A stretch of DNA of 64,000 bases from Escherichia coli (lineage in GTDB: Bacteria; Pseudomonadota; Gammaproteobacteria; Enterobacterales; Enterobacteriaceae): assembly GCF_003334335.1 (NCBI RefSeq), contig NZ_QOWQ01000002.1, one strand, 5' to 3'. The first letter of the stretch is position 1; each line of letters opens with the position of its first letter. Positions 38,717 to 50,532 of this stretch are shown here, in pieces. The position numbers and the translations under genes were made by a program. The notes beneath the pieces are model-generated. The model was given only the letters and a program-made list of their open reading frames with translations. It had not been told where the DNA came from and did no database searches.

Positions 38717-38897
38717 TTGTAGGCCGGATAAGGCGTTCACGCCGCATCCGGCAACAGGAGCCAAATGCCGGATGCAACGCTGGCGCGTTTTATCCGGCCT
38801 ACAATAAGCTCAACATACTGATTTGTATGGTTTTGTAGGCCGGATAAGGCGTTCAAGCCGCATCCGGCGACAGGAACCAAATGCCGGATGCGTCTCT
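38717..38897. repeat. BIME / REP cluster (at least three REP units)
   Basis: Repeated gtaggccggataaggcgttcacgccgcatccggca units in alternating orientation between mglC and preA. Confidence 0.75.
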
Positions 38898-45016: not shown

Positions 45017-45964
45017 ATGCGTGTGTTACTGGCACCGATGGAGGGAGTGCTTGACTCTCTGGTGCGTGAATTGCTGACCGAAGTTAACGACTACGATCTG
45101 TGCATCACCGAGTTTGTCCGCGTGGTGGATCAACTGCTGCCGGTAAAAGTCTTTCATCGCATTTGCCCTGAGCTACAAAACGCCAGCCGGACACCATCTG
45201 GTACGCTGGTGCGCGTGCAGTTGTTAGGTCAGTTCCCACAATGGCTGGCAGAGAACGCCGCCCGTGCGGTGGAGTTAGGTTCCTGGGGCGTGGATCTCAA
45301 TTGCGGCTGCCCGTCGAAAACGGTTAACGGTAGCGGCGGCGGGGCGACGTTACTCAAAGATCCTGAACTCATCTACCAGGGTGCAAAAGCGATGCGTGAA
45401 GCTGTACCGGCGCATTTGCCCGTCAGCGTGAAAGTGCGTCTGGGCTGGGACAGCGGTGAGAAGAAATTTGAAATCGCCGATGCGGTTCAACAGGCTGGCG
45501 CTACGGAGCTGGTGGTGCATGGGCGGACGAAAGAGCAGGGTTACCGCGCGGAGCATATTGACTGGCAGGCGATTGGCGATATTCGCCAGCGGCTGAATAT
45601 TCCGGTGATTGCCAACGGTGAAATCTGGGACTGGCAGAGCGCGCAACAATGCATGGCGATCAGCGGCTGCGACGCAGTGATGATTGGTCGCGGGGCGCTC
45701 AATATTCCCAACCTGAGCCGGGTGGTAAAATATAACGAACCGCGAATGCCGTGGCCGGAGGTGGTTGCTTTGCTGCAAAAATATACCCGTCTGGAAAAGC
45801 AGGGCGATACCGGGTTATATCACGTTGCGCGGATTAAACAGTGGTTGAGTTATTTGCGTAAAGAATACGATGAAGCAACGGAATTATTTCAGCATGTTCG
45901 GGTGTTGAATAATTCCCCTGATATTGCAAGGGCTATTCAGGCAATTGATATCGAGAAACTCTAA
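45017..45964 (+). CDS. dusC: tRNA-dihydrouridine synthase C DusC
   Basis: ORF 44951..45964; likely start [11 protein letters not shown] (~315 aa); Dus family. Confidence 0.9.
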
Positions 45965-46336
45965 AAAACCATAGTGATGTTTTTTGACAATGTGTTAGCT
46001 CTTTATCAATAGGCCGCACGGTTGTTTGGTGGCGTCAAAATTGCCGAGGCGTTCCCTGAAGGCCGGGGCAGCCCACATGGATGTGGGCTGAGGGCGCGTT
46101 TTACAGGGATGTTACCTCGCGCCCGACCCGGTAGCCGTAAGGGATAAGTCGAGGGCACCGCGCAGCGGCGATTTTGTTCGCCAGAGCCCGGGGGTGCAGG
46201 GGGCGGCGGCGATTGGCCGCCCCCTGCGCGCTCCTTGCGCCAGTGATTATATGAAGCAATGCACATGACAGGAGCGCAACAGGATGAGAGACTGAAATAT
46301 TCTCGTTATTTTCGGACCTGATGACATTAATTAATT

Positions 46337-46420
46337 TTAAAATATCATCTTAAATACGCCAGTCACCACCAGTAGCCCAATCAGGAAAATAATCAATACA
46401 GCCCAGAGTATAATTTTCAT
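46337..46420 (-). CDS. yohP: Small hydrophobic protein YohP (27 aa)
   Basis: ATG at 46418-46420 (minus); hand translation MKIILWAVLIIFLIGLLVVTGVFKMIF; below ORF-track size cutoff. Confidence 0.6.
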   Translation of the reverse strand: MKIILWAVLIIFLIGLLVVTGVFKMIF

Positions 46421-46643
46421 TGGCGTTCCTTTATTTGTGAGTGCTGAATAAGTATAGGAAAAAACGAAGCCCTTTGCCGTTATCCATAAACGATTAAGAT
46501 AAATCGGAAGATATCATTCACTTAGTGTATATTTTTCTGGATATGTCGTTTTATTGCCACTGATGTATTGCCACGCGAAACTAAAAAATATATCGCAACA
46601 CACGGTAATCTCCGCGCACCTTTTCTTACCTGATTATTCCCCC

Positions 46644-48080
46644 ATGAATCGTGATTCCTTTTATCCAGCCATCGCCTGTTTTCCGCTGTTACTGATGCTG
46701 GCCGGGTGTGCGCCTATGCATGAAACCCGCCAGGCGTTAAGCCAGCAAACGCCCGCTGCACAAGTTGACACCGCATTACCCACGGCGCTGAAAAATGGTT
46801 GGCCAGACAGCCAATGGTGGCTGGAGTATCACGATAATCAACTCACTTCCTTAATTAACAATGCACTACAGAACGCACCGGATATGCAGGTGGCTGAACA
46901 GCGCATTCAGCTAGCTGAAGCCCTGGCGAAGGCAGTTGCCACTCAGGATGGTCCGCAGATCGACTTTTCGGCGGATATGGAGCGGCAAAAAATGTCGGCA
47001 GAAGGCTTAATGGGGCCGTTTGCTCTGAACGATCCGGCCGCAGGTACGACCGGCCCGTGGTACACCAACGGTACTTTTGGCTTAACGGCGGGCTGGCATC
47101 TCGATATCTGGGGAAAGAATCGGGCGGAGGTTACTGCCCGCCTGGGTACGGTTAAAGCACGGGCGGCGGAACGCGAGCAAACCCGCCAATTGCTGGCTGG
47201 CAGCGTAGCCCGCCTGTACTGGGAGTGGCAAACCCAGGCGGCGTTAAACACGGTCTTGCAGCAAATAGAAAAAGAGCAGAACACCATTATCGCGACCGAT
47301 CGCCAGCTATATCAGAACGGGATTACTTCTTCAGTTGAAGGTGTGGAAACCGATATTAATGCCAGCAAAACCCGGCAGCAGCTCAACGATGTCGCGGGGA
47401 AAATGAAAATTATTGAGGCACGGTTAAGCGCACTTACAAATAACCAGACAAAGTCATTGAAGCTTAAACCGGTCGCGTTGCCGAAAGTGGCAAGCCAGCT
47501 TCCTGATGAACTGGGGTACTCCTTACTGGCCCGGCGGGCAGATTTGCAGGCGGCGCACTGGTACGTTGAGTCATCGCTAAGCACCATTGATGCGGCAAAA
47601 GCGGCATTTTATCCTGACATCAACCTGATGGCCTTCCTGCAACAGGATGCGTTGCACTTAAGCGATCTGTTCCGTCATTCCGCGCAGCAAATGGGCGTTA
47701 CGGCAGGCCTGACGCTACCCATTTTCGATAGTGGTCGTCTTAACGCCAATCTCGATATCGCAAAAGCCGAAAGCAACTTGTCTATCGCCAGCTACAACAA
47801 AGCGGTGGTTGAAGCGGTGAATGACGTGGCGCGGGCAGCCAGTCAGGTTCAGACACTGGCGGAGAAAAACCAGCATCAGGCGCAAATTGAGCGCGATGCC
47901 TTGCGTGTGGTAGGTCTTGCGCAGGCGCGCTTTAACGCGGGCATCATTGCTGGTTCCCGCGTCAGCGAAGCCAGAATCCCCGCGCTGCGTGAGCGGGCCA
48001 ATGGCCTGTTATTGCAAGGGCAGTGGCTGGATGCCTCCATTCAACTCACTGGTGCGTTGGGCGGGGGTTACAAACGCTGA
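46644..48080 (+). CDS. mdtQ: NodT/OprM-family outer membrane efflux lipoprotein MdtQ, apparently intact here
   Basis: ORF 46554..48080 uninterrupted; likely start MNRDSFYPAIACFPLLLMLAGCAP (lipobox LAGC), ~478 aa. Confidence 0.85.
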   Translation: MNRDSFYPAIACFPLLLMLAGCAPMHETRQALSQQTPAAQVDTALPTALKNGWPDSQWWLEYHDNQLTSLINNALQNAPDMQVAEQRIQLAEALAKAVATQDGPQIDFSADMERQKMSAEGLMGPFALNDPAAGTTGPWYTNGTFGLTAGWHLDIWGKNRAEVTARLGTVKARAAEREQTRQLLAGSVARLYWEWQTQAALNTVLQQIEKEQNTIIATDRQLYQNGITSSVEGVETDINASKTRQQLNDVAGKMKIIEARLSALTNNQTKSLKLKPVALPKVASQLPDELGYSLLARRADLQAAHWYVESSLSTIDAAKAAFYPDINLMAFLQQDALHLSDLFRHSAQQMGVTAGLTLPIFDSGRLNANLDIAKAESNLSIASYNKAVVEAVNDVARAASQVQTLAEKNQHQAQIERDALRVVGLAQARFNAGIIAGSRVSEARIPALRERANGLLLQGQWLDASIQLTGALGGGYKR

Positions 48081-50359: not shown

Positions 50360-50532
50360 AAAGTTCTTTGACGTTGCATTGCTGGCGTAAATGTCAGCAA
50401 TGCAGCATTTCCTCACGATTCTCCTTTGACGATCGCACTTTTTGCTCGTTATGATGGCGTCGCTAGCCTCAGTAAATCCTTACTCCGGCGGTGCGCAACC
50501 CGTGCGCGTGAACCACTATCTGAATGCTCATC

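What the first reader, a model, noticed from the sequence alone, without database searches (positions are those of the whole stretch)
46040..46250. GC-rich, hairpin-dense ~200-bp island between dusC and yohP
In an otherwise ordinary intergenic region there is a markedly GC-rich stretch carrying two perfect hairpins: cagcccaca-tgga-tgtgggctg (46069-46090) and cagggggcggc-ggcgattg-gccgccccctg (46197-46226, 11-bp stem), plus further GC palindromes. The only ORF here (86 aa, Pro/Gly/Arg-rich, minus strand) looks like a composition artefact. It does not match REP/BIME units seen elsewhere in the window. It could be a structured small RNA, an unclassified repeat family or a remnant of an inserted element. 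I cannot say from memory whether it is present in K-12.
Basis: seen in the sequence. Interest (0 to 1): 0.5.

Follow-up and report, generated by a model that had tools for sequence, protein, structure and literature searches.

The report
Known RRS/TRIP1c repeat beside dusC
The GC-rich, hairpin-dense island between dusC and yohP is the already described E. coli TRIP1c repeat, also called the dusC "replication risk sequence", which published experiments show folds when unwound and leaves a gap behind the replication fork.

Summary
In detail: GC is 0.60-0.73, both perfect hairpins are at the stated coordinates, and either strand folds far better than shuffles. This is not an unclassified repeat. 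It is TRIP1c (Rudd 1999; Li 2024), window 46008-46280, and contains RRS-dusC (Pham 2023, 2024; Kusi-Appauh 2026), window 46022-46245. It is present in all 5,426 complete E. coli genomes searched, K-12 included. Published experiments show that the G-rich strand (window +) blocks polymerases and causes lagging-strand ssDNA gaps. At least one of the two RRS copies is conditionally essential.

New here:
- 46 copies from several genera support a multi-hairpin fold (17 of 63 pairs compensatory; G·U 135 against A·C 4), and the G-rich strand is the folded one.
- The left two-thirds is a divergent copy of Rfam's orphan TwoAYGGAY motif. It scores 29.7 bits here, below the cut-off of 43, but Erwinia relatives score up to 57.
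- Its loops, CA-N-GGA-U-G and CA-N-GGA-N-G, resemble CsrA sites.
- About 39% of E. coli genomes carry an arrangement at this locus that is not collinear with the window. In the one such strain read (O157:H7) the element is inverted.

The 86-aa ORF is an artefact. Verdict: already known, low interest, with one untested side lead.

The parts
46008..46280 (+). TRIP1c repeat, whole element as delimited in the literature
   Evidence: Li et al. 2024 give TRIP1c as NC_000913.3 2229122-2229394. I mapped this with yohP as anchor (window 46337-46420 = K-12 2228982-2229065). MG1655 matches window 46008-46290 at 99.6%.
46022..46245 (+). RRS-dusC (replication risk sequence), the part deleted and tested by Pham et al.
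   Evidence: [quoted passage not shown]
46030..46183 (+). Left module: closing stem P1 (46030-46050 pairing with 46148-46183) around a multi-hairpin junction. It is TwoAYGGAY-like.
   Evidence: The consensus fold and pair counts on alignment A1 show helices 1-4 each with compensatory changes. Rfam TwoAYGGAY matches 46036-46173 at 29.7 bits. Model R1 built from this module finds the Erwinia TwoAYGGAY copies.
46069..46090 (+). Hairpin 1, stem CAGCCCAC/GUGGGCUG, loop AUGGAU
   Evidence: Pair 54:63 is A-U in 27 copies and G-C in 19, and pairs 49:68 and 52:65 are also compensatory. The loop CA[U/G/A]GGAUG is present in all 46 copies.
46092..46124 (+). Hairpin 2, stem GGGC.../...GCCC, apical ACAGGGAUGU
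   Evidence: Helices 8 and 9; pair 83:92 is A-U in 30 copies and G-C in 16. The loop is CA-N-GGA-N-G in 45 of the 46 copies, and the GGA is kept in all 46.
46190..46209 (+). Published G-quadruplex-forming motif GGGGGTGCAGGGGGCGGCGG
   Evidence: Exact match on the + strand only. The motif is quoted from Pham et al. 2024.
46196..46227 (.). Core 12-bp GC hairpin (palindromic; forms on both strands), the most conserved part of the family across Enterobacterales
   Evidence: I2. The basal pair 20:53 is G-C in 49 copies and A-U in 12. The base of the stem differs in a complementary way in Hafnia, Erwinia, Rahnella and Ewingella copies, and O157:H7 carries GGAGGA/TCCTCC in place of GGCGGC/GCCGCC.
46228..46277 (+). 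Third hairpin GCGCUCCU...AGGAGCGC with an AT-rich loop; right end of the element
   Evidence: I10. Alignment A2: pair 60:99 is C-G in 54 copies and U-A in 8; pair 61:98 is U-A in 28 and C-G in 19.
46006..46266 (-). 86-aa ORF: not a gene
   Evidence: The frame is not preserved among copies, there is no family match, and it is not annotated in RefSeq.

Best explanation
[quoted passage not shown] It acts as DNA, not through a protein. When the replication fork unwinds it, the G-rich strand folds into a very stable structure. That strand is window + and is the lagging-strand template in the K-12 arrangement. The structure has several hairpins plus a G-rich segment reported to form a G-quadruplex. 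Lagging-strand synthesis is blocked, an unfinished Okazaki fragment leaves a gap of up to about 2 kb, and SSB and RecA load into it. With its partner at lysO-aqpZ (TRIP1a), about 650 kb on the other side of dif, it flanks the Ter domain. The discoverers propose that it relieves topological stress. Shown by published experiments: polymerase block, gap formation, conditional essentiality and effects on supercoiling. Shown here: identity and coordinates, strand, selection on the fold, and family anatomy. Inferred: the 'topological relief valve' role.
For: Identity:
- The window matches MG1655 2229112-2229394 at 99.6%.
- The coordinates match the TRIP1c and RRS-dusC definitions in PMC10888264 and PMC11194060.
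- The exact G4 motif lies at 46190-46209 on the + strand.

Copies:
- lysO-aqpZ holds a long form and putP-efeU a short form lacking about 125 bp, as published.
- Every one of 5,426 complete genomes has a match, with a median of 3 places per genome.

Strand:
- The window's GC skew is +0.029, so + is the lagging-strand template, as published.

Selection on a fold of that strand:
- 99.3% of cells are paired; 17 of 63 pairs have compensatory changes; 0 of 500 shuffles reach this; slid controls give 5 or fewer.
- G·U 135 against A·C 4.
- Both strands fold far better than shuffles. This fits the 2026 report that the C strand also blocks synthesis, but less well.

Published function.
Against: - The orientation that the model treats as native is not universal. 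About 39% of complete E. coli genomes are not collinear with the window at this locus and about 26% at lysO-aqpZ.
- In the O157:H7 strains I read (one per locus), the element is full length and inverted.
- Related genera carry 6-12 or more copies per genome, which looks more like a dispersing repeat than a positioned pair.
- Across 80 loci the G-rich strand does not sit preferentially on the locally G-rich strand. Mean flank skew is -0.015, 28 positive against 51 negative. This is a noisy measure and is confounded by gene orientation.
- The G4 model alone does not explain why the loops CA-N-GGA-U-G and CA-N-GGA-N-G are so conserved (the first invariant, the second in 45 of 46 copies) or why the left module is kept.
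- The G4 motif has only two runs of three or more G.
Confidence: 0.88

Rival explanations
1. In addition to, or instead of, its DNA role, the G-rich strand is transcribed. At this locus that could be read-through from dusC, whose stop codon lies 43 bp upstream. It would act as a TwoAYGGAY-class RNA whose two GGA hairpin loops bind the CsrA dimer, titrating it or using it to control the neighbouring mRNA.
For: - The only Rfam family matched is TwoAYGGAY: 29.7 bits, E = 0.06, + strand. The K-12-type lysO copy gives 30.6 bits.
- Erwinia relatives exceed the gathering score, at 45.7-57.2 bits against 43. A model built from the E. coli/Klebsiella/Kluyvera module finds those same places at E = 2e-7 to 6e-3.
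- The loops ACAUGGAUGU and ACAGGGAUGU are near-perfect matches to the SELEX CsrA consensus RUACARGGAUGU (my knowledge). GGA in both loops is kept in all 46 copies.
- TwoAYGGAY has been proposed as a CsrA binder (PMC4333381).
- The G·U to A·C asymmetry marks the + strand as the folded strand.
Against: - No sigma-70 promoter or intrinsic terminator consensus lies in or next to the element.
- dusC and ybjE carry 'No' in four columns of a supplementary table of the Potts et al. 2017 CsrA study. I did not read the headers, and aqpZ and yohP were not found. This is weak evidence, gene-based and from one condition.
- In K-12 the lysO-aqpZ copy has its G-rich strand antisense to both neighbours.
- In most copies across genera the next large gene on the 3' side converges on the element (59 against 20). 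Read-through from that gene would therefore copy the C-rich strand.
- G·T wobble also stabilises single-stranded DNA, so the strand asymmetry fits the DNA model equally well.
- This copy is below Rfam's cut-off.
Confidence: 0.15
2. The family is basically a selfish or recombination-spread intergenic mosaic repeat, akin to REP/BIME or MITEs. Its presence here reflects insertion and gene conversion, and the replication effects are a side-effect of its stable fold.
For: - Copy number runs from 1 to 10 places per E. coli genome.
- In the scan of one representative genome per species, 9 loci came from Kluyvera cryocrescens, 8 from Erwinia rhapontici and 6 each from Klebsiella pneumoniae and an Enterobacter. 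A 5.4-Mb Klebsiella pneumoniae record filed in the plasmid collection has up to 12 matching places.
- Different strains carry different orientations and short or long forms at the same locus, with unrelated junction sequence.
- Klebsiella copies sit between REP units.
- Erwinia, Ewingella and Hafnia copies are flanked by short tandem repeats.
- The right end lies a short distance after the stop codon of a converging gene in most copies, as with REP-type elements.
Against: - No transposase or obvious terminal inverted repeat or target duplication was seen.
- Compensatory substitutions and invariant loops indicate purifying selection on the fold and on specific loop bases, though a mobile element's own transposition signals could be selected in the same way.
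- Published conditional essentiality of the pair in K-12 argues for a host function.
Confidence: 0.2
3. It works as an mRNA 3'-end element for the convergent genes dusC and yohP: a transcription stop or an exonuclease barrier, like REP sequences.
For: It lies 43 bp after the dusC stop and about 56 bp after the yohP stop, between convergent genes. No other terminator was detected in the interval. Its hairpins are very stable on both strands.
Against: No hairpin is followed by a T-run on either strand. At lysO-aqpZ the element lies after the apparent aqpZ terminator. The conserved complex fold and loops are more than a barrier needs. The G·U asymmetry favours one strand only, whereas a convergent-gene barrier would need both.
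Confidence: 0.1
4. The 86-aa minus-strand ORF encodes a protein.
For: The ORF is open with an ATG start. 33 of 46 copies have some minus-strand frame open across 230 nt, as expected at 63% GC.
Against: Net length differences are not multiples of 3 in 26 of 46 copies. TRIP1b has a 125-bp internal deletion. Substitutions follow base-pairing, not codons. There is no NCBIfam match and no RefSeq annotation.
Confidence: 0.01

Closest known systems
TRIP1 repeats / RRS (replication risk sequences) of E. coli (Rudd 1999; Pham et al. 2023, 2024; Li et al. 2024; Kusi-Appauh et al. 2026)
   Same: It is this element: same locus, 99.6% identical to K-12 TRIP1c, same G4 motif, same strand relative to replication.
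   Different: Nothing at the sequence level. The papers I read do not describe the covariation-supported fold, the TwoAYGGAY relationship or the CsrA-like loops. The word searches found no 'CsrA', 'Rfam' or 'hairpin' in the 2024 paper.
Rfam RF01731 TwoAYGGAY RNA motif (Weinberg et al. 2010)
   Same: A closing stem P1 encloses two adjacent hairpins whose loops carry A-Y/N-GGA-Y. It is multi-copy and intergenic in gammaproteobacteria (Psychromonas). Erwinia members of the RRS family pass the Rfam cut-off.
   Different: The window copy scores 29.7 bits, below the cut-off of 43. It is much more GC-rich, its second loop is AGGGAU rather than AYGGAY, it has extra helices in the junction, and it is fused to a G-rich hairpin module absent from the Rfam model. 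TwoAYGGAY is filed as an RNA, whereas this element has demonstrated activity as DNA.
CsrB/CsrC/RsmZ-type CsrA-sequestering RNAs
   Same: GGA motifs presented in hairpin loops, close to the high-affinity consensus, with two sites about 28 nt apart.
   Different: Only two or three sites rather than 9-22. No recognisable promoter or terminator. No positive evidence of binding: dusC and ybjE are marked 'No' in the Potts et al. table I searched.
REP/BIME elements
   Same: GC-rich, palindromic, intergenic, after gene ends, mosaic. In Klebsiella the element is physically embedded between REP units.
   Different: No sequence similarity. Much longer (about 270 bp), few copies in E. coli, and not matched by the REP-derived naRNA4 model, which hits only 38722-38799 in this window.
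Neisseria gonorrhoeae pilE G4
   Same: A G-rich structure said to trigger a gap during replication (cited).
   Different: Unrelated sequence and biology (antigenic variation). It is a canonical G4, whereas here only two runs of three or more G exist.

Membership tests
TRIP1 / RRS | Sequence identity to K-12 TRIP1c at the dusC-yohP locus | tested here: met
   99.6% over 283 nt to NC_000913.3 2229112-2229394, flanked by dusC and yohP. The published coordinates are 2229122-2229394.
TRIP1 / RRS | Paralogous copies at lysO-aqpZ (long) and putP-efeU (short, internal deletion of about 125 bp) | tested here: met
   The deletion is bounded by the short direct repeats CCGGGG..CAG.
TRIP1 / RRS | G4-forming motif GGGGGTGCAGGGGGCGGCGG on one strand only | tested here: met
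   Exact match at 46190-46209 on the + strand, none on the - strand.
TRIP1 / RRS | G-rich strand is the lagging-strand template | tested here: met
   Window GC skew is +0.029 on the + strand, positive in 7 of 8 sub-windows of 8 kb. This is an inference from skew. It does not hold for O157:H7-type strains.
TRIP1 / RRS | Triggers RecA/SSB-bound ssDNA gaps; polymerase block; conditional essentiality of the pair | not testable with these tools
   Taken from PMC10287960, PMC11194060 and bioRxiv 10.64898/2026.06.16.732529.
Rfam TwoAYGGAY (RF01731) | Score at or above the curated gathering score (43 bits) | tested here: not met
   Window 29.7 bits. L003 30.6 and L015 30.2. Erwinia relatives of the same element family reach 45.7-57.2.
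Rfam TwoAYGGAY (RF01731) | Two adjacent hairpins with AYGGAY terminal loops | tested here: inconclusive
   Loop 1 is AUGGAU, which fits. Loop 2 is AGGGAU, with G in place of Y. GGA is kept in both loops in all 46 copies.
Rfam TwoAYGGAY (RF01731) | Closing P1 stem around the two hairpins | tested here: met
   Helices 1-4 (46030-46056 with 46141-46183) have 10 pairs with compensatory changes.
Rfam TwoAYGGAY (RF01731) | Homology traceable through intermediates | tested here: met
   Model R1, built from the TRIP1 left module, finds Erwinia sites over its full length at E = 2e-7, 7e-6 and 5e-4. These are the sites that pass Rfam's cut-off. In each case one module sits just 5' of the shared GGGGCGGCGGCGAYTGGCCGCCCC hairpin on the same strand.
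Rfam TwoAYGGAY (RF01731) | Functions as an RNA | not testable with these tools
   No expression data were available. The promoter and terminator scan was negative.
CsrA-binding sRNA | In vivo CsrA binding and an independent transcription unit | tested here: inconclusive
   dusC and ybjE carry 'No' in four columns of a supplementary table of Potts et al. 2017; the headers were not read, and aqpZ and yohP were not found. No peak list by coordinate was found. No promoter or terminator consensus.
REP/BIME | REP consensus units | tested here: not met
   No similarity of the element to anything else in the 64-kb window beyond chance-level matches. The REP-derived naRNA4 model matches only 38722-38799.
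Intrinsic terminator | GC hairpin followed by a T-run | tested here: not met
   0 sites in 45800-46600 on either strand.

The most novel reading that the evidence does not exclude
The RRS/TRIP1 element is a composite. Its 5' two-thirds is a GC-rich member of the orphan Rfam family TwoAYGGAY, fused to the G-rich hairpin. The highly conserved CA-N-GGA loops are functional binding sites, not just structural filler. Two consequences are possible. Either the RRS is also read as a CsrA-binding RNA. Or, more provocatively, the TwoAYGGAY 'RNA' motif (Clostridia, Psychromonas, gut metagenomes) really works as folded single-stranded DNA that stalls lagging-strand synthesis. The second option would give that family a function for the first time and would show that the G4 alone does not explain the RRS.
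Probability: 0.25. Interest if true: 0.6.

Novelty: already known. Interest (0 to 1): 0.27.

Why it matters
For the scan, this is a correct detection of a real and unusual element from raw sequence, but it is a rediscovery. TRIP1 was named in 1999 and given an experimental function as the RRS in 2023-2026. The element matters because it is one of only two known sequences that programme post-replication gaps, and it flanks the Ter domain.

The additions here could sharpen that work:
- A fold supported by covariation shows which hairpins to mutate.
- The first G-run is conserved but is not demonstrably base-paired.
- The link to TwoAYGGAY and the CsrA-like loops raises a question the published model does not address: what reads those loops?
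- The inverted arrangement in O157:H7 is a natural test of the model's orientation dependence. The other non-collinear strains, which include ST131 and SE15 at the dusC locus, may offer the same test once read.

Tried and rejected
- **Extended hairpin instead of a G4.** RNAalifold on a truncated alignment paired the first G-run (46190-46194) with GCGCUCC. When the alignment was extended (A2), those pairs showed no compensatory change. The competing third hairpin GCGCUCCU/AGGAGCGC showed two. I therefore dropped the idea that the 'G4' is simply a longer hairpin.
- **Protein-coding ORF.** Rejected.
- **Terminator or promoter.** No consensus sites.
- **Other Rfam families.** AgvB (22.9 bits), mir-1304 and snoRNA hits are chance-level.
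- **Second copy inside the window.** None.
- **CsrA CLIP evidence.** Only a gene-level table was readable. It was negative for dusC and ybjE, with no coordinate list.
- **Orientation relative to replication across genera.** I used local GC skew, and the result (28 positive, 51 negative) is probably driven by neighbouring gene orientation. I do not rely on it.
- **Integron attC-like or terminal inverted repeat ends.** I looked by eye and found the match unconvincing.
- **Ascertainment.** The genome-wide pattern scan required the core hairpin, so its invariance in my alignments is partly built in.

Full report
**Observation.** The stretch is as described. Between the dusC stop (45964) and the yohP stop (46337, minus strand), GC rises to 0.60-0.73 over 46000-46249, against 0.33-0.41 on either side. 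The two perfect hairpins are at 46069-46090 (10-nt arms) and 46196-46227 (12-nt arms, 8-nt loop). As single-stranded DNA, 46022-46285 folds at -76.6 kcal/mol on the + strand (z = -5.8) and -71.2 on the - strand (z = -6.1). As RNA the + strand gives -135.5 (z = -4.6). No shuffle of 200 folds as well in any of the three.

**What it is.** A search of 5,426 complete E. coli genomes found the segment in every one, with a median of three places per genome and no annotation under it. The other places are between lysO(ybjE) and aqpZ and between putP and efeU. The first holds a nearly identical long copy. The second holds a short copy in which the segment from about 46069 to 46195 is missing, between the short direct repeats CCGGGG..CAG.

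A literature search on the flanking gene names identified the family. These are the three TRIP1 repeats of K-12 (Rudd 1999; Li et al. 2024, PMC10888264), with TRIP1c at NC_000913.3 2229122-2229394. That maps to window 46008-46280, and MG1655 is 99.6% identical there.

The two long copies are also the 'replication risk sequences' of Pham et al. (PMC10287960, PMC11194060). RRS-dusC is defined as 58-281 bp downstream of dusC, which is window 46022-46245. Their G-quadruplex motif GGGGGTGCAGGGGGCGGCGG lies at 46190-46209 on the + strand only. The window's GC skew (+0.029) makes the + strand the lagging-strand template, as they report.

**Published function (not tested here).**
- RecA and SSB pile up on the lagging strand starting at each RRS, and the peak disappears when that RRS is deleted.
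- The G-rich strand blocks Pol I, II and IV in vitro and slows Pol III.
- An RRS moved elsewhere still makes gaps.
- Both copies cannot be deleted without a compensating 200-kb amplification.
- Loss or inversion of both changes genome-wide supercoiling.
- A 2026 preprint shows gaps at nearly every replisome passage when the G strand is the lagging-strand template, and in about two-thirds of passages when the C strand is.

**What I can add: the fold.** A pattern scan of one genome per species with the core hairpin returned 87 loci. They come from Escherichia, Klebsiella, Kluyvera, Enterobacter, Pseudocitrobacter, Erwinia, Hafnia, Rahnella and Ewingella, often with many per genome. Forty-six distinct long copies align well (A1). 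The consensus fold has 63 pairs.
- 99.3% of cells are standard pairs.
- 17 pairs show changes on both sides.
- No shuffle of 500 reaches the observed values.
- Sliding the partners gives at most 5 such pairs.

Supported helices are:
- a long closing stem (46030-46056 with 46141-46183);
- hairpin 1 (46069-46090);
- hairpin 2 (46092-46124);
- a small hairpin (46158-46168);
- the core hairpin (46196-46227);
- on a second alignment, a third hairpin (46228-46235 with 46270-46277).

G·U pairs outnumber A·C by 135 to 4, or 46 to 4 without the two fixed G·U pairs. The G-rich strand is therefore the one whose fold is preserved. This agrees with the published strand asymmetry, but it does not distinguish single-stranded DNA from RNA.

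I tested whether the first G-run of the 'G4' is merely part of a longer hairpin. It is not supported, because the competing third hairpin carries the compensatory changes. The G-run is conserved yet not demonstrably paired, which leaves room for the quadruplex.

**What I can add: the TwoAYGGAY link.** The only Rfam family that matches the element is TwoAYGGAY (RF01731), on the + strand at 46036-46173. The score is 29.7 bits, below the gathering score of 43. The match recurs in other E. coli-type copies at 30-31 bits.

In Erwinia rhapontici the relatives of this element carry modules that pass the cut-off, at 45.7-57.2 bits. One module sits immediately 5' of the shared GGGGCGGCGGCGACTGGCCGCCCC hairpin on the same strand, and a second, inverted one lies about 300 bp upstream. 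A covariance model built only from the E. coli, Klebsiella and Kluyvera left module finds those Erwinia sites over its full length at E = 2e-7 to 6e-3.

The left two-thirds of TRIP1/RRS is therefore a divergent, GC-rich TwoAYGGAY module. Its loops are highly conserved: CA[U/G/A]GGAUG in all 46 copies, and CA-N-GGA-N-G in 45 of 46. They are close to the CsrA SELEX consensus (my knowledge), and TwoAYGGAY has been proposed as a CsrA binder (PMC4333381). The 2024 RRS paper holds no mention of CsrA, Rfam or hairpins.

The evidence for an RNA role is nevertheless thin:
- No promoter or terminator consensus was found.
- dusC and ybjE are marked 'No' in four columns of a table from a CsrA transcriptomics study whose headers I did not read.
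- The lysO copy's G strand is antisense to its neighbours.
- In most copies the next large gene on the 3' side converges on the element (59 against 20). Read-through from that gene would copy the C-rich strand.

**What I can add: natural variation.** A query spanning dusC, the element and yohP is collinear in 3,316 of 5,426 genomes. In the rest only the flanks match. In an O157:H7 strain the element is full length but inverted, at 88% identity, with compensatory GGAGGA/TCCTCC changes in the core hairpin. At lysO-aqpZ 4,029 of 5,426 genomes are collinear, and another O157:H7 strain again has an inverted full-length copy there. Li et al. had counted both orientations. What I did not find in the RRS papers I read is the implication. 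If the replichore layout is as in K-12, the O157:H7 lineage would carry the G strand as leading-strand template at both loci, and other non-collinear strains may as well.

Klebsiella copies lie between REP units. Copies in Erwinia, Hafnia and Ewingella are flanked by short tandem repeats. The family thus also looks like a dispersing mosaic repeat.

**The ORF.** The 86-aa minus-strand ORF is an artefact of composition. 26 of 46 copies differ in length by a non-multiple of three, TRIP1b lacks 125 bp, substitutions follow pairing, there is no family match, and RefSeq does not annotate it.

**Verdict.** The element is already known (TRIP1c, which contains RRS-dusC), with an experimentally supported DNA-level mechanism. 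Interest for discovery is low. The residual lead is the TwoAYGGAY/CsrA-like module and what reads its loops.

Noticed in passing
L098 (O157:H7 strain 8368, dusC-yohP) 448-719; L100 (O157:H7 strain NE1127, lysO-aqpZ) 359-624: Both RRS loci carry a full-length element inverted relative to K-12. About 39% (dusC locus) and 26% (lysO locus) of complete E. coli genomes are not collinear with the K-12 arrangement. The junction sequences next to the element also differ, so this is not a simple flip.
   Followed up: partly
L047-L054 (Erwinia rhapontici), e.g. L054 2308-2422 (-) and 2639-2708 (+): Each RRS-like locus holds two TwoAYGGAY modules in inverted orientation about 300 bp apart. All are at or near Rfam's gathering score, and tandem repeats such as CCTTAAGACCTTGA flank them.
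   Followed up: partly
L083-L088 (Klebsiella pneumoniae ATCC 13883): The TRIP1-like copies are embedded between Klebsiella REP units (GCCGGGTGGCGGCTGCGCCTTACCCGGCCTAC) on both sides, i.e. inside BIME-like mosaics.
   Followed up: no
80 loci L011-L096: The next large ORF on the 3' side of the G-rich strand converges on the element in 59 cases against 20. Its stop codon is often only about 100-130 nt from the core hairpin. In the window the small gene yohP plays this part, ending about 56 bp from the element's right end.
   Followed up: partly
L005 2405-2580 (E. coli Z1323HEC0475, aqpZ-lysO): A short form lacking the TwoAYGGAY module sits in the opposite orientation to K-12 at the TRIP1a locus, and the aqpZ terminator hairpin seen in K-12-type strains is absent.
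   Followed up: no
window 46644-48080: mdtQ (yohG) is an intact 478-codon ORF here, whereas it is a frameshifted pseudogene in K-12 (MG1655, J53). The window is therefore not from K-12 itself, although the element is 99.6-100% identical.
   Followed up: no
window 38722-38799 and 50448-50528: These are the only Rfam matches above gathering score in the window: naRNA4 (REP-derived, 88.3 bits) and the Peptidase-S11 RNA motif (72.8 bits).
   Followed up: no
L077 (583-bp contig labelled Bacillus sp.) and L097 (contig labelled Chryseobacterium sp.): Enterobacterial TRIP1 copies (85-86% identical to the window) sit in assemblies of unrelated phyla. Contamination of those assemblies is the most likely cause.
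   Followed up: no
window 46254-46314 (-): Weak match to the AgvB (anti-GcvB) sRNA model, 22.9 bits against a cut-off of 56, E = 0.22, just right of the element. I treated it as chance.
   Followed up: no
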